Under the pieces are notes generated by a model that did not search any database, had not been told where the DNA came from, and worked only from the letters and a program-made list of their open reading frames with translations. The position numbers and the translations under genes were made by a program. A stretch of 27,774 nucleotides of DNA from an uncultured Candidatus Woesearchaeota archaeon (GTDB taxonomy: Archaea; Nanobdellota; Nanobdellia; Woesearchaeales; B29-G15): the NCBI GenBank assembly GCA_903915225.1, contig CAIWSB010000051.1, positions 1 to 27,774 on the forward strand. Reading direction: 5' to 3'. Positions 6,671 to 26,378 of the stretch are shown in pieces (the stretch's first letter is position 1; each line of letters opens with the position of its first letter).

Positions 6671-6967
6671 ATGGCAACCCTTACTCTGTCTGTCAGTGAG
6701 GAGTTCCGGAACAAGCTAAGGGGGATTTCCTGGGTAAACTGGAGCGGGGTTGCACGTGAGGAGCTCCAAAAGAGGCTAATTTTTGAGAACTATCTAAAGA
6801 AGAAAAAGCTCAGCAAAGAGGATTGGGAATTCTGCGAAAGGATTGACTGGCATCCAGTCGATGAGCTCCCTCTGAAAAAAGGCTTCATTGAAAAAATGAG
6901 GCATTGGGGCGGGGAAAAGCCTATTAAGGTCTCAATTAAAGAGCTTTTTGATGGGCTACGCCATTGA
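6671..6967 (+). CDS. Antitoxin-like protein upstream of the RelE-family toxin
   Basis: N-terminal MATLTLSVSEEFRNKLRG resembles short beta-strand/helix antitoxin DNA-binding N-termini. It overlaps the downstream toxin gene by 17 nt. Confidence 0.55.
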   Translation: MATLTLSVSEEFRNKLRGISWVNWSGVAREELQKRLIFENYLKKKKLSKEDWEFCERIDWHPVDELPLKKGFIEKMRHWGGEKPIKVSIKELFDGLRH

Positions 6968-7214
6968 GGTTATCCCCTCATGCAAAAAGAGCATAACAAA
7001 ACTCTGCCAAAGGAATCCTTCTCTCGAAAATGCCCTCCGAAGAAAAATCGAAGAGGTTATTGAAAATCCGCTCAGGTTTAAGCCGCTTCAGCACTCATTT
7101 GCTGGAGAGTATCGAGTCCATATCCTAAAGAGCTTTGTGCTTATTTATAGAGTCGATGGGGCCACAGTAAGGTTACTTTTCTTTGGGCACCATGATGAGG
7201 CTTATAGAATCTAA
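6951..7214 (+). CDS. relE: RelE/ParE-superfamily type II toxin
   Basis: About 87 aa with the typical layout: IEVIPSCKKSITKL, NPLRFKPL, YRVHI, FVLIYRVDG, VRLLFFGHHDEAYR. Overlaps the preceding small ORF. Confidence 0.75.
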   Translation: MGYAIEVIPSCKKSITKLCQRNPSLENALRRKIEEVIENPLRFKPLQHSFAGEYRVHILKSFVLIYRVDGATVRLLFFGHHDEAYRI

Positions 7215-11939: not shown

Positions 11940-12184
11940 TTTTGTGAGTGCCCAAAATGGATTAGAAGTTTTACCCCTAGCTGCTCAAGCCCGTGGGGGA
12001 TGTCGCAGGCCCCGTAGCAGGAGCCCCCCCAGATAATCACCCGGGCTTTTGTGGCTTTTTCCAGGTGGTCAACAATTTCTCCGGCTCGGGGCTTTAAGCC
12101 GTCAGGGAGCTGGATTGCAACTGTTTTGGCCTTGTTCTTCTGGATTAGCTTCACAGCCCTATCCAATTCCAAATCATAATCCAT
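11936..12184 (-). pseudogene. dph2: Truncated dph2 (diphthamide synthesis radical-SAM enzyme), N-terminal 82 aa only
   Basis: LELDRAVKLI..AKTVAIQLPDGLK..YGACDI..LLIHFGHS is collinear with the first ~80 aa of archaeal Dph2 (about 330-340 aa). The ORF stops right after GHS, so two of the three Fe-S cysteines are missing. Its own TATA box (12206-12213) lies about 26 nt upstream. Confidence 0.6.
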
Positions 12185-12528: not shown

Positions 12529-12768
12529 TTAGGTTATTGGGATACAGCAGACCTTGCTTTCCTTGCTGCATGATGTGCTGCCCATGGTTGCCTCGTTCGC
12601 AGCGCAGATTGGCTTGCATTCCCCACTGCGCGCCTGGCAGTCAGACACGCTTGAGGAGAAGATTCCAATGTTGCCTGAGAAAACCAAAACAAGAACAACA
12701 AGAACAATTACAACCAGGGCTGCAATCACTATGGTTTCAAGAGTCAAGCCCTGCCCACGCGAGTCCAT
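12529..12768 (-). CDS. Mini-pilin 1: class III signal peptide plus a six-cysteine C-terminal domain (79 aa)
   Basis: MDSRG|QGLTLETIVIAALVVIVLVVLVLVF followed by C-x6-C-x3-C-x11-C-x6-CC. Paralogous to the two upstream genes. Confidence 0.85.
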   Translation of the reverse strand: MDSRGQGLTLETIVIAALVVIVLVVLVLVFSGNIGIFSSSVSDCQARSGECKPICAANEATMGSTSCSKESKVCCIPIT

Positions 12769-12775
12769 ACTGGGC

Positions 12776-13045
12776 TTATTTCGTGGTGGTTGTTACTGGC
12801 TCTGGGGCGCTTATGCAGCAGACGGTTTTACCTGTTTCAGTACAGCCGGTAGCTAGGGTGAGTTTTATCTGTCCAGTACCGCAAGCATCCAAACACTGTC
12901 CTCCCCTTTCTGTGCACCCGCTCGCTGACTTTGAGAACGGCCCAAGGTTGCCTGTAAAGATTAATATTAGGACAACCAGGACTATAACGACAAGCGCTGC
13001 GATAACAATTGTGTCCAGCGTCAAACCCTGACCTTTGTTTTTCAT
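12776..13045 (-). CDS. Mini-pilin 2: class III signal peptide plus a six-cysteine C-terminal domain (89 aa)
   Basis: MKNKG|QGLTLDTIVIAALVVIVLVVLILIF followed by C-x6-C-x3-C-x12-C-x7-CC. A GAGGTGAT SD lies 7 nt upstream. Confidence 0.85.
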   Translation of the reverse strand: MKNKGQGLTLDTIVIAALVVIVLVVLILIFTGNLGPFSKSASGCTERGGQCLDACGTGQIKLTLATGCTETGKTVCCISAPEPVTTTTK

Positions 13046-13056
13046 AATTTATCACC

Positions 13057-13311
13057 TCAAGTTGTAGTGGGCGCAGTAAAGCAGCAGATGTTCGTGCCAT
13101 CGCACTTTGCCTCTGCTGCACTAAGCCCAATCTCTTTTGCAGGATCACAAGAAGCCTTGCAGACTCCTCCCCTTTCACCGCAAGCCCTCGCAGTTGCAGA
13201 GAAAGGCCCCATGTTGCCTGTGAAGATGAGTATAAGAACAACAAGAACAATTATGACCAGCGCAGCAATAACTATCGTGCTTATGGTCAAACCCTGGCCT
13301 CTTTTACTCAT
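13057..13311 (-). CDS. Mini-pilin 3: class III signal peptide plus a six-cysteine C-terminal domain (84 aa)
   Basis: MSKRG|QGLTISTIVIAALVIIVLVVLILIF followed by C-x6-C-x3-C-x14-C-x5-CC. The ATG at 13311 lies about 27 nt downstream of a TATA box, so the transcript is probably leaderless. The track start (TTG at 13329) falls inside the promoter. Confidence 0.85.
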   Translation of the reverse strand: MSKRGQGLTISTIVIAALVIIVLVVLILIFTGNMGPFSATARACGERGGVCKASCDPAKEIGLSAAEAKCDGTNICCFTAPTTT

Positions 13312-13331
13312 AGAGGGCAAAGGGAGCAAAG

Positions 13332-13348
13332 TAGTATATAAAATTTTC
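13332..13348 (-). promoter_or_regulatory. BRE/TATA promoter element (minus strand GAAAATTTTATATACTA), copy 1
   Basis: The TATA core TTTATATA is centred 27.5 nt upstream of the mini-pilin 3 ATG. An identical 17-mer recurs at 26379-26395. Confidence 0.6.
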
Positions 13349-13354
13349 GTATCC

Positions 13355-13849
13355 TCAGCTGCAGATTTCCAGCCGGACCTCGAGAGTCCTGCCTGTGAAG
13401 GGCGAGGGTAAGCTGTAAATCCCAGGCTTTACGCGGTTCGCGCACGTTAAGTCAGCAGCTGGAATCTTCCACATAACATCTGTTTGAACCCTGAAACTGA
13501 ACTGATAATCGTACTGCATTACCCCCAGTGTGTTGTCCAGGGCCAGCTGCACCACTCGCTTCGCCTCATCGCAGGGGCTGCTGCCCCCAGGGCATTTCAG
13601 CGAGCCGCCTGCAAGCCCTGGGCTTTCGCATGCCGCAAGAATGTCCCAAAGGTCCTGCCCGCTGCACTCAGTTGTAACCTTGAGGATGGCATCGATAAAG
13701 TTTGAAGCCATCTGGGTCCTCTCGTACTCAGCCTTTATGTTTATCTCATTTGCACTCGGCCGGGAGATTGAGATGTAGATAAAGAACCCGACCATTATCA
13801 AAAGCACTACAAAAACCAGGCCAAATATCTCCATCTGGCTGCGCCTCAT
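13355..13849 (-). CDS. Pilin-like protein with class III signal peptide (164 aa)
   Basis: MRRS|QMEIFGLVFVVLLIMVGFFIY followed by a soluble domain with 6 Cys. The start overlaps the upstream stop (ATGA), and a GGTGGTGA SD is present. Confidence 0.75.
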   Translation of the reverse strand: MRRSQMEIFGLVFVVLLIMVGFFIYISISRPSANEINIKAEYERTQMASNFIDAILKVTTECSGQDLWDILAACESPGLAGGSLKCPGGSSPCDEAKRVVQLALDNTLGVMQYDYQFSFRVQTDVMWKIPAADLTCANRVKPGIYSLPSPFTGRTLEVRLEICS

Positions 13850-14328
13850 CCCTGCATCACCACCACCTTGAGCACCCCAAGGTATATCTTGCTGCCATCC
13901 TGGAGGCTCACTGGCACAAAGAAACTGTTGGTTTGCGTCGACTTATCGGGCGAGAGTGAATATAGAGTCCAGGAAAGGCTAGGTGATGGGTAGATTCTTG
14001 TTACAGTAATATTCGAGTAACCAAACTGCTTAAAGTAATAGTCAGAGAAATAATGGCTCCCGCGCAGCCTGAGTGATTCAAATGCAATTACCTTCTGAAG
14101 GTCAAAGCAAGTATTCCGCATGTATTCCCCAGAGGTGCAAACAAACTCGGGTGCGTTCAGGGCTATGAGGGTTGTCTCAATGGCTCCCAGAGACTGAAAT
14201 TCTCCCACTTTTTGGTCAATATTCCTCTTTGATTCAACATAGTAGAATATAAGCCCAATGCCCACAAACACGATGAATATGAGCACAACAAAAATGGTTT
14301 CAAACATCTGGATTTGGGCCTTTCTCAT
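13846..14328 (-). CDS. Pilin-like protein with class III signal peptide (160 aa)
   Basis: MRKA|QIQMFETIFVVLIFIVFVGIGLIFYY. The ATG follows the upstream stop directly (TAAATG), and an AGGTG SD is present. Confidence 0.75.
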   Translation of the reverse strand: MRKAQIQMFETIFVVLIFIVFVGIGLIFYYVESKRNIDQKVGEFQSLGAIETTLIALNAPEFVCTSGEYMRNTCFDLQKVIAFESLRLRGSHYFSDYYFKQFGYSNITVTRIYPSPSLSWTLYSLSPDKSTQTNSFFVPVSLQDGSKIYLGVLKVVVMQG

Positions 14329-15333
14329 TTAGTACACCTGCGGCACAGACTCGTAGACGAGTATCTTGTTGGCCTCATTTAACCTCCTGATGAAGCCAAC
14401 AATCTGGGAGATTGCCAGGGAATGTGAGGCAGCCAGGGTGTTCATCTGCTGAATCTCCCCTTCAACATTTGTGTATAGGTTTGAGTATTTGGGGTTGGAT
14501 TGATAGCTATCCTTCAGCAGCTTCACTTTTTCCAACAGCACACCTGAGACCACCTCAACTGCAGTCATTGAGCTGTTGAAAACGCAGGAATAAATGTTAT
14601 AGTCTCCTGACACTAACGCACCCATGAGCTGCTCCTTTTTCAGCCAATTCCCATCGCCCACCTGCTCCCAGGCAACCCCGTTTTGCTTGTAGAACTTTAC
14701 GCTGCCGGAGATGTTGTCAGCATTCAAGGTTACCTCAACTGCCTTGAGCCTTTTCCCGCTGAAGCCAGGATTGGCCAAGGGCAGGTTTAGAAAAACAAAG
14801 ACGGTGTAATAATTATTCTCGTCAGGAACAGCCGCAGCGTCACTTGCGTATTGCACATTGACCTTTGCTGGCAAAAACTTCTTCAGGGTATTCATAAGGC
14901 TCTGGGACGGCCCGCTGTTGTCGTAAATCACGTTATACTTGGCTTCAGGCGTGGTTGCGAAAATAAAATTGCCAGCATAGAACGGCACAAACCAGGAGTA
15001 GGTCCAAACCTGCAGCCCTGTGCCCTTAAGCTCGGGGGGCGCGAAAAGCAGGTTTGTGGCGAGCCCTGGCCCCGAGACACCGCTTGACTTAAACTGGCTG
15101 CAGTCATACTTGAGGTCAAGGTTAGGGATTTCCATGAACTTGGATTCGCCCTCAACAACCCCTGTTGCTGTAATCCTGGTCTTGAGGTTTCCCAGTGAAG
15201 ACAGGGTTGAGGTCTTGCCTGAGATTTTTATCCACCCCAGGGAGAAGCCCACCACCAGTGACAGGATGAGAACACCCGCCACAAGAATAAATATCCAATT
15301 GAATTGTAGCTCAATTGCTCCCCGGCGTCCCAT
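14329..15333 (-). CDS. Pilin-like protein with class III signal peptide (334 aa)
   Basis: MGRRG|AIELQFNWIFILVAGVLILSLVVG. A GGGGTGA SD overlaps the upstream stop, 4 nt from the ATG. Confidence 0.7.
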   Translation of the reverse strand: MGRRGAIELQFNWIFILVAGVLILSLVVGFSLGWIKISGKTSTLSSLGNLKTRITATGVVEGESKFMEIPNLDLKYDCSQFKSSGVSGPGLATNLLFAPPELKGTGLQVWTYSWFVPFYAGNFIFATTPEAKYNVIYDNSGPSQSLMNTLKKFLPAKVNVQYASDAAAVPDENNYYTVFVFLNLPLANPGFSGKRLKAVEVTLNADNISGSVKFYKQNGVAWEQVGDGNWLKKEQLMGALVSGDYNIYSCVFNSSMTAVEVVSGVLLEKVKLLKDSYQSNPKYSNLYTNVEGEIQQMNTLAASHSLAISQIVGFIRRLNEANKILVYESVPQVY

Positions 15334-15337
15334 TAAT

Positions 15338-18300
15338 TCACCCCTTTTTCCCTTCGGGGTTGATTGTCACAGACACCTTTACATCAGTGGGTGCAGTTTT
15401 GACTTTATTTACAGATTTCTTCTCAACCTTTTTCACAATTTTAGTCTCAACAGGCTTTTTTTCAACTGCATTGAAGATCACAGGCACAGTTATTGTTACT
15501 GGCTTTTTCTCCACGGTGTTTTTCACAGGTTGAACCTTGGACTCCACCTTTTTCACTTGCTGAACCTTGATCTCAACCTTTTTCATGGGTTGTTGCTCCA
15601 CTTTCTTAATTGGCGCAGCCTTTTTAATAGGTTTGGGTTCGGCCTTCTTCACTGGTTCTTCTAGAGTCTCCTCAATTCTCCTTGGCTCAAATGCGCTGGG
15701 TTTTTTCACCTCAAACTCCCGCATTATTCGCTCCTTCATCTTACTTATGTCCTCACCCTGAACAGGCTTGGGCGGGGTCTTGATTACAGGTGCACCGTGA
15801 ATGAAGAACCTCGGCTGGACAGGCTGCGCAATCGGTCCTGTGGGCCTTGACAGAGTTCTGGCAGGCATCATGGGCACTGGCCTTCTTGCTGGCTGCTTTT
15901 TGGTTGCCTTATAGCCGAAGTAGCCCAACAGCACCAGTATTATCAGGATAATAAATATGATGAAAACAATATATAATTTACTAGATGGATGCGAGTTCTC
16001 ATCATGCGGGTCTGTCTTTCCATCTATTTCCGCCTTATCATTGTAGCCATCCCCATCTGTGTCTGCCTTATTGGGGTCAATCTTATACTGGGCGTATTTC
16101 ACCAACTCTTCAAAGTTGGACAGGCCGTCACCATCATTATCCTTTGCTGCATCAGTTGGGTCCTTTGGATTTAGCCCATTGGCAAGCTCCACTTCGTTTG
16201 GGATTCCGTCGCCATCTATGTCCGGATCACATGCATCTCCTTTCTTGTCATTGTCCATGTCCTCCTGTTTTGGGTTGGACACAGAAGGGCAGTTGTCCAC
16301 TGTATCCAGTACTCCATCCCCATCTGCGTCCGTGGAGGATGGGTTTCCTGAGCAGATATTATTGCTGAGGCATTGGCGTGAGAAACAGTCGTTTCCAGAC
16401 TCGCATCGTTTGTCAGCGTCACAGCGCTTTCCATAGTTCACTGCACAGCGCTTGCCACAGTCCACATCAGATTCATAATCTGGATCAAGTACGTTATTTG
16501 AGCAGATTGAAGCATATGATACTTCGCATTTACCTGTGCTTCCGCATGTGAGCCCAGTTGCACAGTCCTCACTGGCAGTGCAATTCTTTCCTGAAGAGCA
16601 TTTTGAGCATGAACCCCCGCAATCCACATCACTCTCACCAGGACCTTTCAGCTTATCGGTGCACGTTGATGTGGTGCATTTCTTGGTAGTTGGGTGGCAC
16701 AGCAAGCCAGATGCACAATCTGTGTCAACTGCGCAGGTCTTGCCAGCCGCACATTTGGGGCAATTCTTGCCGCAGTCAACATCTGTCTCCATACCGATGT
16801 CTAATAGCGAGTTTGCACAAACAGAAGGCTGTTTGGAGGTATCAACCGTGACACCATCACTCTTGCCAGCATAATAACTCCAGATTCCAGCCCCGTTCTG
16901 AGCCTTCACCTGGAAATAATAAGTCTTGCCGTTACTCAGCTTGAGATTGGTGAATGTTTTTTGCTTTGACTTTGTGAACCTCCAGTCCATTACTTTTGAG
17001 TCATTTCTCTTGTTGAATATGGCAACGCTGTAGCCATTGATTTTGGAGAGGGTATCATTTGAGCTCCAGCTACCAGTAAGCTCATCTGTCATCCATGTAT
17101 ACTCATCATTGGTGAGGTCCGTGGAATCATTAACCTGCGGCGTTGCAGGAGGAGTTGTGTCCTTTCCAGTCTGGATAGTGAGCGTGGGCTGGGCTGCAGA
17201 GGTTATGCATCTGACATAAAACGTGTAATCCCCGTCATTCTTACTCACATAGGCACTGTAGAGTGTCTCAGTTAGGTTTGTCATCTCATTTATTATCTGG
17301 TTCGCGTTCTCTGAGTAGAAGCACTTTGTTGCCCGGTTTGAAACAACCGAAAGCCCAATTGGCTTTATGCTCTTATTCACCCAGCGGGGTGTAGTGCTCT
17401 CTATTGTCAAGGGAAGATTCCTGTCCACCTGGACATCAACAGTTGAAACAGTACTCTTTGCCCCAACCGGGTTCTCGCAATAAACATAAAAGCTGTAAAC
17501 CTTGGTGTCGACTGAGAAATTAATCGTCTTGAAATGTTCCCTTCTGTAGTCGTTTGTGTCAAACCCAGGGAAAATGAACCTCATTTTTGCAGGCGTAGCA
17601 TAGCTTGCCTCCCTGTCCCATTTGCATATGGTGGGATCATCGCTAGTCACAACTAGAGAGGATGTGAATGGAACACGGTACACAATAGGCGGATGAGCTG
17701 AAACGTTTATAATCGGGGGGATTGCATCATATCCAATTGTGAAATTTGCAGCAGGGTTTGTTTTTCGCCCCATGGTATCATTGCAGATTACAAAAATGGT
17801 TACATTGCCCCCTTGTGAAAGCTCAGAGAATGCAGCCTTTTTGTGGTATAACCCCCAAACTCCGCCAGTGGTGTTCACAGTTAGGGGTTTCATTAGGTCA
17901 AATGGCACCTTTATGCTGTCCATATACCTACATCTGGCCATTTCGTCTGTCTTGAAAACTAGGTCAAATGGAACTGTACTGACAACTCCCCATTTTGGCT
18001 TAAATAAGGAAACTGAAGGTGCCCGGGCATTAACTGTAAAAGAATGGAGCCCGGATAAAGGTGGCCGCCCCGCGGAAGTTGCTGTCGCTTGGATTGTGTA
18101 AAGCCCGTCTTTGGGGGCAAACATGCGGGTTTTCTTGTAAGTCCTGTCGTTAACCCTGGTCATGGTGAGGTTAATTGGCTTATCAAGCCCAATCAGCTGC
18201 ACGAGGAATTTTGTGGGAGCTTGAATGAAGGTTACAGTTATATTAAATGTATCCTTTGTAATAACCGAGCCCTCATTGGGAGTGGCCGGCTGGGTGACTA

Positions 18301-18646
18301 TAATTACATCTTTAGTCTGGTTGTTCACTTCAAACTCAAAGGAAGCATAATTCGCCATCTCATTCCCTATGTCATCCCGGGCCTTGACCTTTAGCACATA
18401 ATCACCGTTGTTAAGCTGGGGGGAATTCAGCACAAAGTAATTCCTTGCCTCTGTAACAATTCTGCTCTTGACGTCAATTGCAGCCCCTGTAGCCGGTTGG
18501 ATATATGCCTCTGTGATAGTTACCGGGTCATTTTCAGATGTAAAATCAATAGTAAATGAGGGGGTATTGCTTGAGACAACTACATACGCGCCTGCTGGGC
18601 TAGCAAGTAAGATAAGCAACAAAAGCAAAATTGTTGTTTTTTTCAT
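15338..18646 (-). CDS. Giant modular surface protein: Sec signal, Ig/Fn3-like domains, 3x 8-Cys repeats, TSP3 calcium-binding repeats, TM anchor, Lys-rich cytoplasmic tail
   Basis: Start set at the ATG at 18646 (MKKTTILLLLLILLASPAGA), which has an AAGGTGA SD; the track start at 18655 is a GTG. Fn3-like GKTYYFQVKAQNGAG. Three repeats with E[ST]DVDCG..C..C. D-x-D-x-DGDG motifs (DADGDGVLD, DIDGDGIPN, DNDGDGLSNFEE, DTDGDGYND). TM helix LYIVFIIFIILIILVLLGYFGY. Confidence 0.85.
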   Translation of the reverse strand: MKKTTILLLLLILLASPAGAYVVVSSNTPSFTIDFTSENDPVTITEAYIQPATGAAIDVKSRIVTEARNYFVLNSPQLNNGDYVLKVKARDDIGNEMANYASFEFEVNNQTKDVIIVTQPATPNEGSVITKDTFNITVTFIQAPTKFLVQLIGLDKPINLTMTRVNDRTYKKTRMFAPKDGLYTIQATATSAGRPPLSGLHSFTVNARAPSVSLFKPKWGVVSTVPFDLVFKTDEMARCRYMDSIKVPFDLMKPLTVNTTGGVWGLYHKKAAFSELSQGGNVTIFVICNDTMGRKTNPAANFTIGYDAIPPIINVSAHPPIVYRVPFTSSLVVTSDDPTICKWDREASYATPAKMRFIFPGFDTNDYRREHFKTINFSVDTKVYSFYVYCENPVGAKSTVSTVDVQVDRNLPLTIESTTPRWVNKSIKPIGLSVVSNRATKCFYSENANQIINEMTNLTETLYSAYVSKNDGDYTFYVRCITSAAQPTLTIQTGKDTTPPATPQVNDSTDLTNDEYTWMTDELTGSWSSNDTLSKINGYSVAIFNKRNDSKVMDWRFTKSKQKTFTNLKLSNGKTYYFQVKAQNGAGIWSYYAGKSDGVTVDTSKQPSVCANSLLDIGMETDVDCGKNCPKCAAGKTCAVDTDCASGLLCHPTTKKCTTSTCTDKLKGPGESDVDCGGSCSKCSSGKNCTASEDCATGLTCGSTGKCEVSYASICSNNVLDPDYESDVDCGKRCAVNYGKRCDADKRCESGNDCFSRQCLSNNICSGNPSSTDADGDGVLDTVDNCPSVSNPKQEDMDNDKKGDACDPDIDGDGIPNEVELANGLNPKDPTDAAKDNDGDGLSNFEELVKYAQYKIDPNKADTDGDGYNDKAEIDGKTDPHDENSHPSSKLYIVFIIFIILIILVLLGYFGYKATKKQPARRPVPMMPARTLSRPTGPIAQPVQPRFFIHGAPVIKTPPKPVQGEDISKMKERIMREFEVKKPSAFEPRRIEETLEEPVKKAEPKPIKKAAPIKKVEQQPMKKVEIKVQQVKKVESKVQPVKNTVEKKPVTITVPVIFNAVEKKPVETKIVKKVEKKSVNKVKTAPTDVKVSVTINPEGKKG
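15401..15658 (-). repeat. Degenerate Lys/Val/Pro-rich coding repeats in the cytoplasmic tail
   Basis: Protein sequence: KKAEPKPIKKAAPIKKVEQQPMKKVEIKVQQVKKVESKVQPVKNTVEKKPV...VEKKPVETKIVKKVEKK. The plus-strand DNA repeats the unit CTC[AC]ACCTTTTTCA at least three times. Confidence 0.7.
16352..16819 (-). repeat. Three tandem coding repeats of an 8-cysteine module (about 48 aa each)
   Basis: Track aa 613-660, 665-710 and 718-768 share the spacing C-x13/14-C-x3-C-x2(7)-C-x5-C-x5-C-x4/5-C-x5/6-C and an [ED][ST]DVDCG core. Confidence 0.8.
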
Positions 18647-18651
18647 TATGT

Positions 18652-21600
18652 TCACCTTAACCCAATTACTGGTGCTACTGGTGGAGTCCTGTCAAGGATA
18701 ATCTCATAGGGCTCTATTGCAGTTGCGCCAAGCCTATTTGTGGCATTGAAAACCACCCGGTTCATCCCGTCAATCAAATAGACATATTTCGTGAATGGGA
18801 CATTATGCCCGCGCCCCGGAGGTATAATGTAAGTATAAGGTGGGGTTGAACGAATTGAGATAAAGGCAAGTGTGACATTTGAGCCAGTGTCCTCTATGTA
18901 TCCACTTGCCTCCTGCTGTTGTAGCCTCACCTTGAATGTATTCCTTGGCCAAGATGCCACAACAATTCTTGGGGCCTGCCTCTCAACCCTGAAGCTGGAG
19001 AATTCCTGCAGCTTATTTCCCCTGGTGTCAATGCTGGTAATCTTTGCTGTGTAACGACCATCTGACATGAGGCTGCTTGGCCTGAATACAAGTGTAGTGC
19101 TATCTTTCCAAACAAGTGTTCCTGAGACGTTTAATGATTCCCAGAAGAGCTGTATTTTCGAACCAGTAGAGTTCCTGTTCAACGTTACAAACTCGCTCAC
19201 TGGATGGAAAAACACAGTGACATTCCTCACAATAGCCCTCACTGCCCCTTCAGGGGGTATCACATCAAAGGTGGGTGCACCTGAGACAAAGGTGAAGCTT
19301 TGGATATCAGAATCAGGGCTGGGGTTCTCTGCTAGGTCATACGCCCTAACAAAAACCTTGTAATCCCCTTGAGCGTGAAGAATAATCGGAGTAGAGCTCA
19401 GGTTGAACTTATTCGCTGAGTTTACAAGCGCAGTGGCAACCTGCTCATACGGCCCCGAGCCCAGCTTGAGGTATACCTTCAAAGTTGTTCCTGCTTCTGC
19501 TGTGCCTGAGAGCTTGAGGCGGTTTGTATCTGTGTAAGATGGGATTGCATTGAGGATTGGTTTAGCAGGGTGTTCTGTATCAAGGTAAACCCTTATTCTA
19601 GATTGCCTCGCAGGAAGGTTTTCTGCAACAACTTCTATTGTGAACTCTTTCCATCCCTGGATGTTTGGTAGGTTAATTGTTTCTTCTCGGGTCATACTCT
19701 TTAGTGGAGGGCTGCCTGTGGTGTAAACATAGAACTGCTTTACAACCGCTCCATTGATATCCTTAAGTATAATGCTATTTATCCTCTCAAATGAGTCCAC
19801 ATAAATCCTGAACTTTGGTGTGGTGTAATTGATGTATGAGTTGTTCCCGGGGTAATAAAGGAAAATCCCTATCCCGCCTATATTGTGGGTTGAGAGTTTG
19901 ATGTTTGCGGTGTTAATAACCTCAACGTTCTTGCTGGGGTCAACTGCGAAATACTTTATTGTGTTATCACCTAAGCTAAGCTTGCCCTGTGAGATAAGGT
20001 CTTCAACCTTCATGGAGGCCTTTGTCATGTTGAAATATGAGCCTGGGTCTGAGTTAATGCCCTTATATCCAAACGTCCCGCATTCTGTTGAACCGGTGTA
20101 GGAGCACAGAAGTAGCTGGTATCCCCTTCCCAAACTTACTGGTCTTTCAACTCCCTGGGACTCGGTTTTGTCAAGAACACTAAAAGTTATGTTATCGTTA
20201 GTGAAGAGCCACACAGTAGAAGCCAAGGTGGAATGTGGAGGGTACCTGTCACGCTGGCACGCAAGGTCAGTTTCCCCGCAGTCAGGGGAACCGTCGCCAT
20301 TTGCATCCTTAACACAGTGTGTTTTAGTTGGTGCCTGAGCACATGCCCTTATTCCCCCATCACAAAGGCTGCTCCCAGTAGTTATCTGATTACTGTTGCC
20401 AAGTTCTATTGCCGCAGCACAATCTGTTTGGAGGGTAACCCCCTCGCAGGTGAAATCCCTGCAGGTTAAGCCGCCTGGTCCACATGGGAAATTCTCAACC
20501 TCCAATGCATTGCGCTTCTCTTGACTGCACCTGTTAAAGATAAAATTGTGGGCATCCAGGCTTTGCACAGCGCTAGTACCCTGGGATTCGCAGTATTTGC
20601 AATTGTCCCTTCCTTTGGTAACACAAACCCCCATGCCCAGGGCCTGGTTCGTCCAGTTCCAATTGCAGTCTAGAACACCTGCTGCTCGGCAATTGTTTGC
20701 CTCGCATGCCTCTTCTGATTTGTAATCATAGCAATCCATCAGCGGGTTGCAATCATAGCACTTATTGACCAAAGTTTGCGACTTGTCATAAAAGCAATAC
20801 TTGGGCTCCCCATTCTTTGTTTCACACTGATCCTCTGAGGTGGTAAACATTCCAAATGGCTGCACACCCTCACAGGGGCCTCTCGCATAGCATTGTGGCT
20901 GGTATGTGCTATCAATCACGCAAGTCTTGCCAGTTGCAGAGCAGTTTCTGTTTAAGTGCGCCTTGTTGCTTGCATTGCATGTATAAGAATTGAAGAAATA
21001 AGAGCTAAATGTGGTGTTAATCCATGCGCGGAGATTGGCTGGGGTTATTCCCAGGATGTTTTGGAAATAGTAAGAGAAGCTTGGCCGCTCTGAAGATACC
21101 AGCGTAAAGTAGTTTGGGGCAACGCAGAATGGCCTGCTGTCAAAGACGCCCCAGCACAGGGTATCCCCCAGTTTTATGTTAACCCTTCTAGAAAAGTCCA
21201 CATTCCTGTTCCCAGAAAGAAGGTAAGTTGCTGTGACATTATATTGGTATTCCTTCCCCCACTTCAAGATTGAGCCGTTATCCACATAACTCAAACCAAC
21301 GTAGTCCTTTACAATTTCCTGGTGGCCCAGTGTACCTATCTCTTTTCTTTCAATCCTGTAGAATTTCGGTCGGTAGCCGCAATTTGGGGCAGAAAAGCTC
21401 AAGTCAACAAGCTTCTGGCCCTTTCTAGGGGAAGCCAGAACAAACGGGGCAGGGTCAGGGCACACAGAGGGGTCAATATAATCAGGTAATGGTTCCTGAG
21501 GGAAACTGGCATTGTACCTCTCGCAATAGTCCCTGTCGCAAGGGCCTTGCATCTGTGAGTCATTAGTCCATATTCCCTTCTTGCATGCTGGCTCAACTCT

Positions 21601-21891
21601 TCTTAGAGGCAATGGATTACAACAGCAGCCAATGGTGCAGTTGTCTACTCGGGTGCAGTCAACTCCTGGCTTGAAATACCTCTCAACACAGGCCTGTTGA
21701 TCAGGGGCCCCTTCAATACCATATGCGGTGGGGTTATCTGGGCAGCATTGGGCTTGCGTTACAGGCAATAAGCAGACTATCGTCTTGGCGTTGAGGCAAC
21801 ACCCAGTTGCATCCTCTGCCCTCACAGCCACTGCCGCGCAGGCAATGGCAAGTAGCACCGATACCAAAAAAATCGCATTTGATAGTCTCAT
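18652..21891 (-). CDS. Giant secreted cysteine-rich protein (1079 aa) with an Ig-like C-terminal half
   Basis: Sec-type signal (AIFLVSVLLAIACAAVAVRA). About 44 Cys fall in aa 31-545 and only 2 after that. The C-terminal half is beta-rich with Big-like boundaries (DTEHPAKP, LDRTPPVAP). Many N-x-S/T sequons. A GGTGG SD precedes the ATG. Confidence 0.85.
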   Translation of the reverse strand: MRLSNAIFLVSVLLAIACAAVAVRAEDATGCCLNAKTIVCLLPVTQAQCCPDNPTAYGIEGAPDQQACVERYFKPGVDCTRVDNCTIGCCCNPLPLRRVEPACKKGIWTNDSQMQGPCDRDYCERYNASFPQEPLPDYIDPSVCPDPAPFVLASPRKGQKLVDLSFSAPNCGYRPKFYRIERKEIGTLGHQEIVKDYVGLSYVDNGSILKWGKEYQYNVTATYLLSGNRNVDFSRRVNIKLGDTLCWGVFDSRPFCVAPNYFTLVSSERPSFSYYFQNILGITPANLRAWINTTFSSYFFNSYTCNASNKAHLNRNCSATGKTCVIDSTYQPQCYARGPCEGVQPFGMFTTSEDQCETKNGEPKYCFYDKSQTLVNKCYDCNPLMDCYDYKSEEACEANNCRAAGVLDCNWNWTNQALGMGVCVTKGRDNCKYCESQGTSAVQSLDAHNFIFNRCSQEKRNALEVENFPCGPGGLTCRDFTCEGVTLQTDCAAAIELGNSNQITTGSSLCDGGIRACAQAPTKTHCVKDANGDGSPDCGETDLACQRDRYPPHSTLASTVWLFTNDNITFSVLDKTESQGVERPVSLGRGYQLLLCSYTGSTECGTFGYKGINSDPGSYFNMTKASMKVEDLISQGKLSLGDNTIKYFAVDPSKNVEVINTANIKLSTHNIGGIGIFLYYPGNNSYINYTTPKFRIYVDSFERINSIILKDINGAVVKQFYVYTTGSPPLKSMTREETINLPNIQGWKEFTIEVVAENLPARQSRIRVYLDTEHPAKPILNAIPSYTDTNRLKLSGTAEAGTTLKVYLKLGSGPYEQVATALVNSANKFNLSSTPIILHAQGDYKVFVRAYDLAENPSPDSDIQSFTFVSGAPTFDVIPPEGAVRAIVRNVTVFFHPVSEFVTLNRNSTGSKIQLFWESLNVSGTLVWKDSTTLVFRPSSLMSDGRYTAKITSIDTRGNKLQEFSSFRVERQAPRIVVASWPRNTFKVRLQQQEASGYIEDTGSNVTLAFISIRSTPPYTYIIPPGRGHNVPFTKYVYLIDGMNRVVFNATNRLGATAIEPYEIILDRTPPVAPVIGLR

Positions 21892-21901
21892 TCAAACCAC
21901 C

Positions 21902-23698
21902 TTAGCATGGAATCACGACTCTCGCATTTGTGCTGTTTGATGCCCCAAAGGAATCTGTGACAGAGAAAGTAATATTGTATACGCCCGTATTATTAGTAAA
22001 CCAAACGTTCCACCAATGGGTTATGCCTGTAGTATACCTTGTACCTATATTGTAATCAAGTGTTGGACCATGGAAGTCGAGGGTAAGGTTGAGCGGATCC
22101 TTATACGAATCCTCTAGGTTAGTGGTCTCAACCTTGTAGACAAACCAACCCGATACTGGGTCTTCCCCTGTGCATGAAACCCTAACATTGCTTGGGGGAG
22201 AATTAAAAAGCTTGATTGGGACGACAACCGTGTCGTTATAGTTGGGGTTATCTCGCTCAAAGAACTTTAAACTTAGCGTTGTTTGCATACCGTTATCAAA
22301 TTCAGACTCATTGTTGTATTCGCAGGCCTGGCCCCAATCACAGTTTGATGTCTTGAAATCCCAGTCAATGGGATCATCATCAGGGTCATACGCCGGGCGG
22401 TAATTCCCTTGGGCGCCAGTTGAGTTTTTGTAGGCATTAAAAATGCAGGCAACTGCTTGCCTGTTCATCTGCTTAAAGACCCTGGCAGAGAGAACGTTTA
22501 AAGGAGTGTCAAAAACCCCACCGCAATTGGGGAGGTTAAGATAGGATTTCAGTCCGGGCACTGCACTAAGGTTTCTGTAGTGAATGTAAGCCGCAGAGGG
22601 TGGAGAATTAGGGATTGCAGCGAAAAATCTGTAAGTCTCGTATTCCGCCTGGTTCTGTTTTGGAATCCAGGACTGATTGTCCTCAAAGACCACTACATCC
22701 ACCTTTTTTTCATCCACGTCCCGTATAAGGTTGATTAAGCTAATGTTTTCCGACGAAACAGTGGAACTCAGATTATAACTGTAATCCTCTGCCTCTTTTC
22801 TCAAAATATCGTTCACGTATTTATATATTTTTCCAAACCTCACCCTCGAACTTATTGAGAATTTGTTTAGCAAAGTTGATTTGCCAGATTCAGTTACGTT
22901 ATTTTGAACAGTCAGGGGGCACATCATCTCAACCGAGGTGAACTCCTCTGAGAAGGTTGGATTTACCGACAAATTTCCAATCCGCTTTACAACCAGCCCC
23001 TTTTTCCTCAATTCCTCAAAATTCAGGCATTTGGTAATATTTCTGGCAATAAACTCTGCCAATGATGCCCGGATTTTCATCTTTGGGGACATCAAGGGTT
23101 GGATCCAACCAACCTGGCGAGCTACCCCTTCGTTCTCATAAAGCCCAGGGAGGTTTAGCTGGTTGAGCATTCTCGCATTGCTGACCATGTTCCCTGATAA
23201 ATCATGAGCCATTGAATCGCCAACCTCGGGGCCGAAAGCAATGATTTCTGAGTTCTCTCCCTCAAATGGGAATGTAATTGATGGGCAGCGTTCATAGGAG
23301 AATAAATCAGTTCCAATATCTCTAGGACAACATGAGAGTCCATAGGTTAATGTCCCTGGAAAGATAGAGTACCATATCCATCTACCCCCATAATCTAAAG
23401 CAAAATCCTCTGTTTTGAAGGAGTCCGGCACCGTGCCCCCTTGGCTTTCGTATATTACCCCCCCTTGCTTGCCCAGGAGTATTAAACCATTTAGAGTGGA
23501 GTCCATAAGGCATTGCTGAACGAACTCAATAACTGGCTCTACCTTGGGCGGCAAGTCTGGCAGCTGCGGGCTCTTCAGGAAAGGGAGTCTTAAGGCAATG
23601 ATTAATCCTGCACCCAGAATCACAACAACTGCAATTATTAGGAAGAAAGAGACCTGGGCCCTTTTATCTCCAAGCGCCTCATTTTCTTCATTGCTCAC
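21902..23698 (-). CDS. Large pilin-like protein (598 aa) with class III signal peptide and a PKD/Ig-like C-terminus
   Basis: GTG start with a GAGGTGG SD about 5 nt upstream. N-terminus GDKRA|QVSFFLIIAVVVILGAGLII. The C-terminal YNITFSVTDSFGASNSTNARVVI resembles the last strands of a PKD domain. Confidence 0.75.
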   Translation of the reverse strand: MSNEENEALGDKRAQVSFFLIIAVVVILGAGLIIALRLPFLKSPQLPDLPPKVEPVIEFVQQCLMDSTLNGLILLGKQGGVIYESQGGTVPDSFKTEDFALDYGGRWIWYSIFPGTLTYGLSCCPRDIGTDLFSYERCPSITFPFEGENSEIIAFGPEVGDSMAHDLSGNMVSNARMLNQLNLPGLYENEGVARQVGWIQPLMSPKMKIRASLAEFIARNITKCLNFEELRKKGLVVKRIGNLSVNPTFSEEFTSVEMMCPLTVQNNVTESGKSTLLNKFSISSRVRFGKIYKYVNDILRKEAEDYSYNLSSTVSSENISLINLIRDVDEKKVDVVVFEDNQSWIPKQNQAEYETYRFFAAIPNSPPSAAYIHYRNLSAVPGLKSYLNLPNCGGVFDTPLNVLSARVFKQMNRQAVACIFNAYKNSTGAQGNYRPAYDPDDDPIDWDFKTSNCDWGQACEYNNESEFDNGMQTTLSLKFFERDNPNYNDTVVVPIKLFNSPPSNVRVSCTGEDPVSGWFVYKVETTNLEDSYKDPLNLTLDFHGPTLDYNIGTRYTTGITHWWNVWFTNNTGVYNITFSVTDSFGASNSTNARVVIPC

Positions 23699-26340: not shown

Positions 26341-26378
26341 AAGCTCACCGGTTTTTATATATCCCAAAAATCAGATTA

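What the first reader, a model, noticed from the sequence alone, without database searches (positions are those of the whole stretch)
15338..18646. 1102-aa type I membrane protein combining Ig/Fn3-like domains, an 8-Cys triple repeat and thrombospondin-type-3 calcium sites
The order read from the sequence is: Sec signal; about 590 aa of beta-rich Ig/Fn3-like modules (boundary motifs DAIPP, DTTPPATP, and GKTYYFQVKAQNGAG); three 8-Cys repeats with an E[ST]DVDCG..C..C core (24 Cys in total); about 110 aa of D-x-D-x-DGDG TSP3-like calcium-binding repeats; one TM helix; and a cytoplasmic tail of about 190 aa. It sits between the minor-pilin genes and the 1079-aa Cys-rich gene and is translationally coupled to both. 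A membrane-spanning adhesin with a long cytoplasmic tail is unusual in archaea. It could link an external filament or adhesion event to the cell interior.
Basis: partly seen in the sequence, partly recalled or inferred. Interest (0 to 1): 0.65.

Follow-up and report, generated by a model that had tools for sequence, protein, structure and literature searches.

The report
DPANN pilin-locus surface anchor protein
This is a real 1102-residue single-pass surface protein of a Woesearchaeota-like (DPANN) archaeon, one member of a large family that no database names; it always sits next to pilin-like genes, and its long cytoplasmic tail carries conserved short motifs, so it is a good but unproven candidate for a cell-attachment anchor.

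Summary
The gene is on the minus strand (15338-18646). It encodes:
- a signal peptide;
- six beta-sandwich modules;
- three cysteine-knot-like repeats (24 Cys);
- genuine thrombospondin type-3 calcium repeats (Pfam 1.5e-11; COMP 4.5e-25);
- one TM helix;
- a 189-aa, +25-charged, disordered tail.

It is not a one-off. A profile of its core finds 1732 representative clusters below 1e-30. Of the proteins I could inspect, 73 share the whole plan: core, Cys repeats, TM, and a 67-409 aa basic tail. Those with a source name come from Woesearchaeota or "Nanoarchaeota" genomes, and all are called hypothetical.

In all five homologous loci whose downstream genes I read, the family gene precedes a block of class-III-signal, pilin-like genes.

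In 21 of the 73, the Cys-rich head encoded here by the upstream 1079-aa gene is fused to the same polypeptide. The two window proteins therefore probably form one complex.

The tails mostly cannot be aligned, yet they share two motifs far above shuffle expectation. The window protein has the first (KERIMREF).

Best reading: a membrane anchor and stalk of a pilin-locus adhesion complex. The ligand and the cytoplasmic partner are unknown. This is a new variant of the known "large surface protein in archaeal pilus loci" theme.

The parts
15338..18646 (-). Full coding sequence of the 1102-aa type I membrane protein (stop codon at 15338-15340).
   Evidence: ORF list and translation. Full-length homologs P0002-P0004 at 37-49% identity.
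18587..18646 (-). Sec-type signal peptide, aa 1-20 (MKKTTILLLLLILLASPAGA|YV).
   Evidence: Hydropathy peak at aa 4-24 and an A-x-A site. Not run through SignalP.
18032..18586 (-). Two N-terminal Ig-like beta-sandwich modules, aa 21-205 (Y_Y_Y, Big_13 and CopC-like hits).
   Evidence: Pfam Y_Y_Y 30.7 bits, above its cut-off of 26.6; Big_13 and CopC weak. All-beta in AF2, pLDDT 50-70. Weakly paralogous to the C-terminal modules of the upstream 1079-aa protein (E=0.001).
17147..18031 (-). Family-defining core: three about 95-aa beta-sandwich modules, aa 206-500, each with one invariant Cys pair (239/288, 341/390, 442/480). No Pfam model.
   Evidence: Invariant columns in 13 homologs. Internal repeat alignment. 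AF2 pLDDT 80-93. No meaningful Pfam hit.
16841..17146 (-). Fn3-like module, aa 501-602 (DTTPP ... GKTYYFQVKAQNGAG).
   Evidence: Pfam fn3 24.1 bits against a cut-off of 25. AF2 beta-sandwich with pLDDT about 85-90. Foldseek matches to Ig/Fn3 arrays.
16337..16840 (-). Three tandem Cys-rich mini-domains, aa 603-770 (24 Cys; E[ST]DVDCG..C..C core), probably four disulfides each.
   Evidence: Cys positions and repeat alignment. 23 of the 24 Cys invariant in nine homologs. AF2 mean pLDDT 89. No significant PDB fold match: best is Dkk4 N-terminal region at E=0.12, plus local knottin-like matches. No Pfam hit.
15983..16336 (-). Thrombospondin type-3 calcium-binding repeats, aa 771-888. Five DxDxD sites and a Cys pair (786/806) inside a canonical DNCPxxxNxxQxDxDxDxxGDxCD unit.
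   Evidence: Pfam TSP_3 1.5e-11 and TSP3_bac 1e-6, both above cut-off. COMP 3fby 4.5e-25 and thrombospondin-2 2.3e-23. Motif positions.
15908..15982 (-). Single transmembrane helix, about aa 889-913 (LYIVFIIFIILIILVLLGYFGY).
   Evidence: Hydropathy maximum 3.24 at 891-909. AF2 helix 891-914. Five K/R in the 13 residues after the helix against one K in the residues before it.
15341..15907 (-). Cytoplasmic tail, aa 914-1102: a Pro-rich basic proximal part, a conserved helix, then a K/V/P/E-rich polycationic distal part. Net charge +25. Predicted disordered.
   Evidence: Composition and charge. pLDDT below 50 for 915-1102, with a single predicted helix at 966-977. Homologous tails in 73 family members.
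15713..15751 (-). Tail motif A, aa 966-978 (SKMKERIMREFEV). Family consensus: [KR][KR]x[LIV][FL]xxF.
   Evidence: R973, E977 and F978 invariant among the five closest homologs. Motif present in 37 of 73 tails against 2.5 expected from shuffles, and in 26 of 50 BLAST-unlinked tail groups.
18652..21891 (-). Upstream 1079-aa secreted Cys-rich protein, a probable partner. Its N-terminal about 660 aa is fused to the target's family in other genomes.
   Evidence: BLAST: its aa 3-664 align to P0006 aa 1-668, and the target's aa 7-787 align to P0006 aa 677-1445. The domain is fused in 21 of 73 family members.
12529..15333 (-). Downstream block of six class-III-signal, pilin-like genes: 334 aa (14329-15333), 160 aa (13846-14328), 164 aa (13355-13849), and three small 6-Cys paralogs (13057-13311, 12776-13045, 12529-12768).
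   Evidence: N-termini match [KR][GAS][QA] followed by a hydrophobic helix. The same block follows the family gene in L003, L004, L007, L008 and L009. No pilin profile hit.
21902..23698 (-). 598-aa protein of the same cluster, with a class-III-signal-like N-terminus (KRAQ|VSFFLIIAVVVIL). Candidate large pilin-like subunit.
   Evidence: Translation. Orthologs in L001, L003 and L004.

Best explanation
**What it is.** The gene encodes the membrane-anchored stalk subunit of a conserved, pilin-locus-associated surface complex of Woesearchaeota-type DPANN archaea.

**Shown or strongly supported.**
- The protein is exported by Sec and keeps a single C-terminal TM helix (type I).
- Its ectodomain, reading outward from the membrane, is: a calcium-binding TSP3 segment, three disulfide-knotted mini-domains, one Fn3 module, three single-disulfide beta-sandwiches and two Ig-like modules.
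- Its 189-aa polycationic tail lies in the cytoplasm.
- It belongs to a large family of identical plan. In every homologous locus whose downstream genes I read, the family gene precedes a set of class-III-signal, pilin-like genes.

**Inferred.**
- The N-terminal Ig-like modules hold the product of the upstream gene, a 1079-aa Cys-rich "head". In many relatives head and stalk are one polypeptide.
- The head is thereby displayed some tens of nanometres from the membrane, beside a type-IV-like filament built from the co-encoded pilins. The assembly serves attachment to a surface or a partner cell.
- Calcium and disulfides stiffen the stalk.
- The tail's conserved helix (KERIMREF here) fixes the anchor to something inside the cell. 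In most relatives, repeated D[VI]FxxLxx[IL] amphipathic motifs probably do the same. That something is either a cytoplasmic protein or the inner membrane face.

The ligand and the cytoplasmic partner are unknown.
For: **Architecture and topology.**

**Family size and conserved plan.** 1732 representative clusters score below 1e-30 (many through the repeated Fn3-like part). 73 of the inspected proteins have a full core followed by a TM helix and a 67-409 aa tail; for most, K+R makes up 17-41% of the tail.

**Synteny.** Clusters with the same gene order occur in L001, L003, L004, L007, L008 and L009. In the five loci whose downstream genes I read, these carry [KR][GAS][QA] + hydrophobic-helix N-termini.

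**Fusion with the upstream gene.** P0006 covers both window proteins end to end. The N-terminal Cys-rich domain is fused in 21 of 73 family members.

**Tail under selection.**
- Only 52 of 2628 tail pairs align at E<1e-5.
- Motif A occurs in 37 of 73 tails (shuffles 2.5).
- Motif B occurs 89 times, in 53 of 73 tails (shuffles 1.4).
- The motifs are present in 26 (A) and 36 (B) of 50 unlinked tail groups.
- The proximal tail and motif A are as conserved as the ectodomain among close homologs, 34-47%.

**Adhesin-like modularity.** One to six core cassettes and lengths of 884-6163 aa.

**Literature.** Large Ig-rich adhesin-like or S-layer-like proteins are a recognised component of archaeal type IV filament loci (PMC4858521; bioRxiv 10.64898/2026.04.22.720090).
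Against: - No experiment, expression data or structure exists for any member. Every source name is "hypothetical protein".
- The neighbours are called pilins only from their N-terminal pattern. No Pfam, NCBIfam or PDB match supports this.
- No secretion ATPase, platform protein or prepilin peptidase lies in the window or in the flanks of the related loci I read.
- The link between the 1079-aa and 1102-aa proteins is a Rosetta-stone inference, not a shown interaction.
- The window protein has motif A only. It lacks a strict motif B.
- The tail is predicted with pLDDT below 50.
- Nothing identifies a ligand.
Confidence: 0.5

Rival explanations
1. It is the cell-wall (S-layer) stalk or anchor of this archaeon, comparable in role to SlaB of Sulfolobales. 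It would be a membrane-rooted pillar holding a proteinaceous outer layer, for example the 1079-aa or 832-aa Cys-rich proteins, at a fixed distance from the membrane. It would not be an adhesin.
For: - It has a signal peptide, beta-sandwich modules, 15 N-glycosylation sequons and a C-terminal TM helix.
- The cluster sits in a conserved housekeeping context between RNase P subunit genes in several genomes, which suggests a core, vertically inherited function.
- Makarova et al. label C-terminally anchored, Cys-containing proteins in archaeal pilus loci "S-layer-like" (PMC4858521).
- Ig-fold proteins with a C-terminal TM helix were proposed as SlaB-like anchors in Nanobdella (bioRxiv 10.1101/2023.10.27.564410).
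Against: - Family members range from 884 to 6163 aa and have 1-6 core cassettes. Such size and cassette variation seems to me hard to reconcile with a lattice of fixed spacing; this is an argument, not a test.
- The long tail with conserved motifs has no counterpart in the S-layer anchors I know of.
- No coiled-coil stalk is predicted.
- No homology to any S-layer family was detected.
Confidence: 0.2
2. It is an accessory part of the type-IV-like filament machine itself. It would anchor or align the filament base in the membrane, or guide the filament through the envelope, and its tail motifs would bind the cytoplasmic assembly ATPase or platform. It would work loosely like the bitopic alignment proteins of bacterial pilus and secretion systems.
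For: - In all five loci whose downstream genes I read, the family gene lies immediately upstream of the pilin-like gene block.
- The junction with the first pilin-like gene is tight, with the stop codon inside a Shine-Dalgarno-like element.
- A conserved short cytoplasmic motif lies at a fixed distance, a median of 61 residues, from the membrane.
Against: - A highly variable ectodomain of 870 aa and up to over 5000 aa is unlike known alignment proteins.
- No ATPase or platform gene is linked to the cluster.
- No similarity to any known pilus-assembly component.
Confidence: 0.15
3. The tail is simply a polycationic, membrane-hugging or nucleic-acid-binding retention segment with no specific partner. 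The motifs would then be amphipathic helices that lie on the inner leaflet and only strengthen anchoring.
For: - Net charge +25.
- By eye, several relatives carry K/A/P or K/T/S-rich runs that look histone-H1-like.
- The motif B consensus is strongly amphipathic, with a hydrophobic moment of 0.74.
- No recognisable domains.
Against: - Mean hydrophobicity of the motifs is low (-0.4), and each starts with a conserved acidic residue. I consider both features atypical of membrane-binding helices.
- F and L are fixed at exact spacing across tails that otherwise cannot be aligned. This suggests specific recognition.
Confidence: 0.15

Closest known systems
Thrombospondin / COMP type-3 (T3) calcium-binding repeats (Pfam TSP_3, TSP3_bac)
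   Same: Residues 771-888 match at sequence level: COMP 4.5e-25, with both Pfam models above cut-off. They include the DNCPxxxNxxQxDxDxDxxGDxCD unit with its Cys pair and five DxDxD sites. They most likely bind Ca2+ in the same way.
   Different: Only the repeat is shared. No other thrombospondin domain was detected by Pfam. Here the repeats are the membrane-proximal stalk of an archaeal type I membrane protein.
"S-layer-like" and "adhesin" proteins of archaeal type IV pilus loci (Makarova, Koonin and Albers 2016, PMC4858521, e.g. arCOG05471; bioRxiv 10.64898/2026.04.22.720090)
   Same: A large signal-peptide protein with conserved Cys and a single C-terminal TM helix, encoded next to pilin genes. 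The proposed roles, envelope or adhesion, are the same.
   Different: Homology to those arCOGs could not be tested because no arCOG library was available. Those papers describe no long cytoplasmic tail, no TSP3 stalk and no knotted Cys repeats. They did not resolve the pilin sets of nanoarchaea or DPANN.
SlaB, the membrane stalk of the Sulfolobales S-layer, and the SlaB-like candidates proposed in Nanobdella aerobiophila (bioRxiv 10.1101/2023.10.27.564410)
   Same: Beta-sandwich modules, N-glycosylation sequons and a C-terminal TM anchor. Both could hold an outer protein at a distance from the membrane.
   Different: No sequence similarity was detected and no coiled coil is predicted. The family varies in length from 884 to 6163 aa. 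It has a 67-409 aa cytoplasmic tail with conserved motifs.
Myxococcus cell-cell cohesion proteins MtsC and MtsD (NCBIfam NF047638, NF047639)
   Same: Prokaryotic surface proteins whose TSP3 repeats are associated with cell-cell cohesion. There are partial hits over residues 739-884.
   Different: The scores of 35 and 17 bits are far below the cut-offs of 350 and 800. Only the TSP3 repeats match. Going by the family name, MtsC carries a MYXO-CTERM signal rather than a TM helix with a long tail.
Eukaryotic type I Ig/Fn3 adhesion receptors (PTP-delta/sigma, contactin, NCAM), and the Ig-array grappling-hook protein GhpA of Aureispira
   Same: These are the best Foldseek matches to the ectodomain, at E 1e-12 to 1e-14. 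They share a bead-string of Ig/Fn3 modules. From general knowledge, the eukaryotic receptors also have a TM helix and a cytoplasmic tail that acts through short motifs.
   Different: The match is at fold level only: 9-17% identity and TM-scores of 0.1-0.2 for the whole chain. There is no catalytic or known adaptor-binding domain in the tail. It is an analogy, not membership.
Dickkopf N-terminal cysteine-rich domain and inhibitor cystine knots
   Same: Small disulfide-dense units. The best fold match is the Dkk4 N-terminal region, with local knottin-like matches of 21-33 alignment columns at target-normalised TM-scores up to about 0.8.
   Different: Not significant: E=0.12, probability 0.14. 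Pfam shows only a Dickkopf C-terminal subdomain hit at E=4.3, in a homolog. The 8-Cys spacing is its own.

Membership tests
Thrombospondin type-3 repeat (Pfam PF02412 TSP_3 / PF18884 TSP3_bac) | Profile score above the curated gathering threshold | tested here: met
   TSP_3 44.2 bits (cut-off 25); TSP3_bac 28.9 bits (cut-off 25). COMP 4.5e-25.
Thrombospondin type-3 repeat (Pfam PF02412 TSP_3 / PF18884 TSP3_bac) | Asp-rich DxDxDGxxDxxD calcium sites, with a Cys pair in the long repeat | tested here: met
   Five DxDxD sites at 773, 796, 807, 836 and 862. C786 and C806 lie in DNCPSVSNPKQEDMDNDKKGDACD.
Thrombospondin type-3 repeat (Pfam PF02412 TSP_3 / PF18884 TSP3_bac) | Actual Ca2+ binding | not testable with these tools
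   Needs ITC, a 45Ca overlay or a structure of residues 771-888.
Fibronectin type III domain (Pfam PF00041) | Profile score above the gathering threshold | tested here: inconclusive
   24.1 bits against a cut-off of 25 for residues 521-587. The fold is a confident beta-sandwich, and the whole-chain model matches Ig/Fn3 arrays.
Archaeal type IV pilin / class III signal peptide protein | N-terminal [KR][GA][AQ] cleavage motif directly followed by a hydrophobic helix that remains in the mature protein | tested here: not met
   The target has a Sec-type signal peptide with an A-x-A site, no basic-G/A-Q motif, and a C-terminal TM helix. Its neighbours do show the motif.
S-layer protein | Forms a regular two-dimensional lattice and is among the most abundant proteins | not testable with these tools
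   No expression or imaging data. No similarity to any S-layer model in Pfam or NCBIfam.
PGF-CTERM / archaeosortase-processed surface protein | A PGF tripeptide before a C-terminal TM helix, followed by a short basic tail | tested here: not met
   The sequence before the TM helix is HPSSKLY with no PGF. The tail is 189 aa. No NCBIfam sorting-signal hit.
MtsC / MtsD cohesion proteins (NCBIfam NF047638 / NF047639) | Equivalog score above cut-off | tested here: not met
   35.1 bits against 350, and 17.3 against 800. The matches are restricted to the TSP3 region.
Dickkopf N-terminal cysteine-rich domain | Significant profile or fold match | tested here: not met
   No Pfam hit for the window's repeats. 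A homolog gives E=4.3, and to a C-terminal subdomain model. Foldseek's best match is Dkk4 at E=0.12, probability 0.14.
The unnamed DPANN family defined here (core of three Cys-pair modules + Fn3, then Cys repeats, TM helix, long basic tail) | Full-length match to the core profile, with the six invariant Cys | tested here: met
   489.6 bits against profile A2; the window sequence is part of that profile. Independent members score 350-1400 bits. The six Cys are invariant.
The unnamed DPANN family defined here (core of three Cys-pair modules + Fn3, then Cys repeats, TM helix, long basic tail) | Tail motif A, [KR][KR]x[LIV][FL]xxF, about 60 residues after the TM helix | tested here: met
   KERIMREF at aa 971-978, which is tail position 61; the family median is 61.
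The unnamed DPANN family defined here (core of three Cys-pair modules + Fn3, then Cys repeats, TM helix, long basic tail) | Tail motif B, D[VI]FxxLxx[IL], often repeated or near the C-terminus | tested here: not met
   No strict match in the window tail. By eye there is only a degenerate VPVIFNAVEKKP, which resembles variants in P0003 and P0004.

The most novel reading that the evidence does not exclude
The family is an archaeal transmembrane adhesion receptor. Its variable ectodomain binds a partner cell or surface. The conserved tail motifs A and B are docking sites that recruit a cytoplasmic machine to the contact site. Candidates for that machine are the pilus ATPase or platform, a cytoskeletal or division protein, or an ESCRT/Vps4-type factor; motif B is an acidic-capped amphipathic helix that often lies at the extreme C-terminus. 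This would give DPANN symbionts an integrin-like physical link between the outside and the inside of the cell.
Probability: 0.15. Interest if true: 0.8.

Novelty: new variant of a known kind. Interest (0 to 1): 0.5.

Why it matters
All cultivated DPANN archaea live attached to host cells, yet the molecules that hold and organise the contact are largely unknown (PMC11291902; PMC11329633).

This gene belongs to a large, completely unannotated family. Three of its regions (the core modules, the Cys repeats and the tail) have no Pfam model. The family gene lay immediately upstream of a pilin-like gene block in every homologous locus whose downstream genes I read.

The analysis gives three concrete handles:
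- a profile that finds the family;
- a predicted two-gene complex of head (1079 aa) and stalk/anchor (1102 aa);
- two short cytoplasmic motifs that can be used as baits to find an intracellular partner.

If a specific partner exists, this would be a rare prokaryotic example of a single-pass adhesion protein coupled to the cell interior through linear motifs. If none exists, the family is still a useful marker for DPANN surface-filament loci and a candidate envelope component.

Tried and rejected
- **Profile scans of the separate regions.** Pfam found nothing meaningful for the Cys repeats or the tail, and only a sub-threshold Y_Y_Y hit (E=0.013) in the M1-M3 core. Pfam on six homolog tails also found nothing meaningful.
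- **Whole-model fold search.** Foldseek returned only generic Ig/Fn3 arrays, which says nothing about function.
- **Cys-repeat fold.** A separate high-confidence model (pLDDT 89) found no significant PDB fold, so \"DKK-like\" was not adopted.
- **Generic anchor signal?** I asked whether the TM helix plus tail is a general anchor used by other surface proteins of these genomes. In about 100,000 residues of six-frame ORF translations (100 aa or longer) from the window and nine loci, K-rich-context motif matches were confined to the family's own tails. The S8 protease, the 1079-aa protein and the 832-aa protein have no such tail. Rejected.
- **Pilin identity of the neighbours.** Pfam, NCBIfam and PDB sequence searches all gave nothing. 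The label rests on the N-terminal pattern and on synteny.
- **Searches that yielded little.**
  - The second word-indexed homolog search, using the core profile, returned one fragment.
  - The genome-collection scan returned only two loci, one a Woesearchaeota MAG and the other an unrelated Fn3 hit in a Bacteroidetes genome.
  - An earlier attempt with the 13-sequence alignment failed for lack of conserved stretches.
- **Source names.** Looked up for 20 representatives. Only \"hypothetical protein\", \"Nanoarchaeota archaeon\" or \"archaeon\" came back.
- **Literature.** Five searches and five papers read. No description of this family or of its tail motifs was found. One search was swamped by eukaryotic parasite papers.
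- **Promoter and terminator scan.** It uses bacterial sigma-70 and terminator patterns, which are not informative for an archaeon.
- **Considered and not adopted.** A PGF-CTERM/archaeosortase substrate (no PGF, long tail), and a pilin (wrong signal type).

Full report

Yes. The window has an uninterrupted ORF at 15338..18655 on the minus strand. The ATG at 18646 gives 1102 aa. The plus-strand translation is full of stops.

The features, in order:
- **Signal peptide.** The N-terminus (MKKTTILLLLLILLASPAGA|YV) is a typical Sec signal with an A-x-A site.
- **Beta modules.** AlphaFold2, run with a 13-sequence alignment, predicts residues 28-601 as purely beta. I read six modules from the strand pattern. 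pLDDT is about 80-93 for residues 210-600. Foldseek against the PDB returns only bead-strings of Ig/Fn3 domains: PTP-delta/sigma, contactin, cytokine receptors and Aureispira GhpA. Pfam supports this with Y_Y_Y above cut-off, fn3 just under it, and weak Big_13 and CopC hits.
- **Cys repeats.** Twenty-four Cys between 610 and 765 form three tandem repeats.
- **TSP3 segment.** Residues 771-888 are genuine thrombospondin type-3 repeats. TSP_3 and TSP3_bac both score above cut-off. phmmer against PDB sequences gives COMP at 4.5e-25 and thrombospondin-2 at about 1e-23. The canonical DNCP...Q.D.D.D..GD.CD unit, with its Cys pair, is present.
- **TM helix and tail.** A very hydrophobic helix (891-913) is followed by a 189-aa tail with net charge +25. 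The ectodomain has net charge -21. It carries all 15 N-x-S/T sequons. AF2 gives the tail pLDDT below 50, with a single predicted helix at 966-977.
- **Junctions.** Both gene junctions are tight, at 5 nt and 4 nt. In both, the upstream TGA lies inside a GGTGA-like Shine-Dalgarno element. Translational coupling is plausible but not shown.

Modules 3-5 (residues 206-500) are an internal triplication. Each has one Cys pair (239/288, 341/390, 442/480), and all six Cys are invariant in 13 homologs.

**2. What is it related to?**

The first homolog search found three proteins with the same architecture at 37-49% identity (1087-1187 aa). It also found more distant ones of 1350-1750 aa. The only source names were \"hypothetical protein\", from Candidatus Woesearchaeota. 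A genome scan placed the closest relative in a Woesearchaeota MAG from Guaymas. Other members are labelled \"Nanoarchaeota archaeon\" or \"archaeon\". The window also carries archaeal housekeeping genes: the RNase P subunit Rpr2, ribosomal protein S15/S13N and a diphthamide-synthesis fragment. The organism is therefore a DPANN archaeon of the Woesearchaeota type.

A profile of the core (residues 200-600, alignment A2) was searched against 1.84 billion representative proteins. It gave 21,981 hits below 1e-3 and 1732 below 1e-30. Many of these hit only through the repeated Fn3-like part.

I scanned all 167 proteins held at that point. Seventy-three have at least one full core cassette followed by a C-terminal TM helix and a tail of 67-409 aa. 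For most of them, K+R makes up 17-41% of the tail. Most also have the D.DCG Cys repeat and DxDxD motifs. They range from 884 to 6163 aa and have one to six core cassettes.

So the architecture is common in this lineage. It is also wholly unannotated. Neither the core, nor the Cys repeat, nor the tail has a significant Pfam or NCBIfam model.

**3. Genomic context**

The window cluster, all on the minus strand, reads as follows:
- a truncated paralog that runs off the window end;
- an 832-aa Cys-rich protein;
- a 598-aa protein with a class-III-like N-terminus;
- the 1079-aa Cys-rich protein;
- the target;
- pilin-like genes of 334, 160 and 164 aa;
- three small (79-89 aa) paralogs with six Cys each.

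The neighbours begin with [KR][GAS][QA] followed by a hydrophobic helix, for example RRGA|IELQFNWIF, RKAQ|IQMFE and KGQ|GLTLETIVIAALV. This is the archaeal prepilin pattern.

Clusters with the same gene order occur in L001, L003, L004, L007, L008 and L009. Orthology was confirmed by BLAST for L001 and L003. The downstream N-termini were read in the other five loci. The family gene is followed by 4 to about 15 such genes, including the conserved QFNWIF protein. In L003 and L004 the cluster has an RNase P p30 gene upstream, and in the window and L004 it has Rpr2 downstream, so the context is housekeeping.

No profile recognises the pilin-like proteins. This fits the published remark that DPANN pilins escape detection (PMC6393860). 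No secretion ATPase or TadC gene lies in the flanks I read.

**4. Gene fission and fusion**

P0006 (1749 aa, Woesearchaeota) aligns over residues 1-668 with the N-terminal 664 aa of the upstream 1079-aa protein. It aligns over residues 677-1445 with the target. The Cys-rich N-terminal domain is fused in 21 of the 73 family members. One 90%-identity cluster holds a 1677-aa fused form alongside 727-aa and 936-aa forms found on a single contig.

The C-terminal Ig-like modules of the 1079-aa protein are weakly paralogous to the target's first two modules (E=0.001).

My inference is that the window's two genes are a split version of one protein, and that their products assemble. The 1079-aa protein would be the distal head. 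The target would be the stalk and membrane anchor.

**5. The cytoplasmic tail**

This is the unusual part. The 73 tails mostly cannot be aligned to each other. Only 52 of 2628 pairs reach BLAST E<1e-5, and single linkage gives 50 groups. Even so, they share a common plan:
- a Pro-rich basic stretch next to the membrane;
- **motif A**, [KR][KR]x[LIV][FL]xxF, preceded by a charged helix, at a median of 61 residues from the TM helix;
- **motif B**, an acidic-capped amphipathic D[VI]FxxLxx[IL] flanked by lysines. It occurs one to six times by the strict pattern, and in 22 of 53 tails lies within 25 residues of the C-terminus.

Against 200 composition-preserving shuffles:
- motif A occurs in 37 tails (expected 2.5, maximum 9);
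- motif B occurs 89 times in 53 tails (expected 1.4, maximum 6).

Motif A is present in 26 of the 50 unlinked groups, and motif B in 36.

The window protein has motif A (KERIMREF, 971-978). R973, E977 and F978 are invariant among the five closest relatives, and AF2 predicts a helix there. It has no strict motif B. Among close homologs the proximal tail and motif A are as conserved as the ectodomain (34-47%), while the distal tail is less so (22-35%).

In the ORF translations of the loci I hold, lysine-flanked copies of these motifs occur only in the family's own tails. Some relatives add folded-looking helical domains or a Cys/His motif at the tail end, but none has a database match.

Motif B has a high hydrophobic moment (0.74) but low mean hydrophobicity. 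That fits a protein-binding or interfacial helix.

**6. Mechanism**

*Shown:* domain order, repeat identities, family membership, synteny, the fusion pattern and the motif enrichment.

*Inferred:* type I topology, from the signal peptide, the positive-inside rule, and the distribution of sequons and charge. Also inferred are disulfides at the invariant Cys, and Ca2+ binding by the T3 repeats.

*Hypothesis:* the protein is the membrane-rooted stalk of an adhesion complex. It displays the Cys-rich head beside a type-IV-like filament built from the co-encoded pilins. The tail motifs fasten it to a cytoplasmic partner or to the inner leaflet.

The rivals are an S-layer stalk, a filament-machine accessory, and a non-specific polycationic retention tail. 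They are set out with their evidence in the rival-explanations section.

**7. Comparison with what is known**

Only the T3 repeats pass a membership test for a named family. The protein is not a pilin, not a PGF-CTERM substrate and not an MtsC/MtsD equivalog. The Dickkopf resemblance is not significant.

The general category is established in the literature: a large Cys-containing surface protein with a C-terminal TM helix in archaeal pilus loci, called \"S-layer-like\" or \"adhesin\" (PMC4858521; bioRxiv 10.64898/2026.04.22.720090). Ig-fold proteins with C-terminal TM helices have been proposed as envelope anchors in a cultivated DPANN archaeon (bioRxiv 10.1101/2023.10.27.564410).

I found no description of this family, of its split head-stalk organisation, or of conserved tail motifs. 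My search covered only open-access papers and preprints.

**8. Verdict**

- The protein is one member of a widespread but unnamed DPANN family, so it is not a singular oddity.
- It is a new variant of a known kind: a pilus-locus surface protein, here with a TSP3 and cystine-knot stalk and a long, motif-bearing cytoplasmic tail.
- Interest is moderate, 0.5. The architecture alone would not surprise a specialist. The conserved cytoplasmic motifs and the head-stalk fission give testable entry points into how DPANN cells organise their contact apparatus.

Noticed in passing
window 12529-13329, minus strand (genes 13057-13311, 12776-13045, 12529-12768): Three tandem paralogous small genes (about 84, 89 and 79 aa). 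Each starts with (K/R)GQ|GLT(L/I)xTIVIAALV..., a class III signal plus hydrophobic helix, followed by about 45 aa with six Cys ending in ..CC. They are likely the major filament subunits. The same type recurs in L003, L004, L008 and L009. The long plus-strand ORFs over this region (12537-13031, 13067-13411) are mirror artefacts of these genes.
   Followed up: partly
window 18652-21891 (minus strand) compared with P0006 and 20 other family members: The upstream 1079-aa gene and the target are a split form of a protein that is a single polypeptide in 21 of 73 relatives. The split copy kept an extra pair of Ig-like modules at its C-terminus, weakly paralogous to the target's first two modules.
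   Followed up: yes
window 23869-26367 and 26440-27774 (minus strand): The 832-aa Cys-rich protein has a paralog immediately upstream. Its reading frame continues past the listed GTG start to the window edge, so that gene is truncated by the window end. L001 has three such paralogs in a row. No family model matches them.
   Followed up: partly
window 21902-23698 (minus strand): A 598-aa protein with a prepilin-like N-terminus (GDKRAQ|VSFFLIIAVVVILGAGLII) and orthologs in every syntenic locus where I looked for one (L001, L003, L004). It could be a large pilin-like tip subunit.
   Followed up: partly
window 24-1844 (plus strand): A secreted subtilase (Peptidase_S8, 1e-46) with a sub-threshold TSP3 repeat and a Cys/Thr-rich C-terminal region but no TM helix. 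It is a second surface protein with a TSP3-like motif in the same window.
   Followed up: partly
window 6671-7214 (plus strand): An overlapping gene pair of 98 aa and 88 aa. The second is a ParE/RelE-type toxin (ParE_toxin, 2.5e-8). The first has no hit and is presumably the antitoxin.
   Followed up: partly
homolog tails: P0046, P0061; P0008, P0086, P0089, P0097; P0018, P0067, P0084, P0118, P0120, P0138, P0154: Some family tails end in extra conserved modules. One type is a Y(H/T)..C ... PC..C Cys/His motif (P0046, P0061). A second is an about 130-aa helical domain (...VIEKLRSIARKEEP...LRVTAAYYR.HK). A third is a repeated helical unit (...VFKEILSQLLKKGK...). None has a significant Pfam match.
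   Followed up: partly
window 11936-12184 (minus strand): An 82-aa ORF matches only the first 55 positions of the 302-position diphthamide-synthesis profile. The same short gene is called in L004 (75 aa). It appears to be a conserved fragment or a split gene.
   Followed up: no
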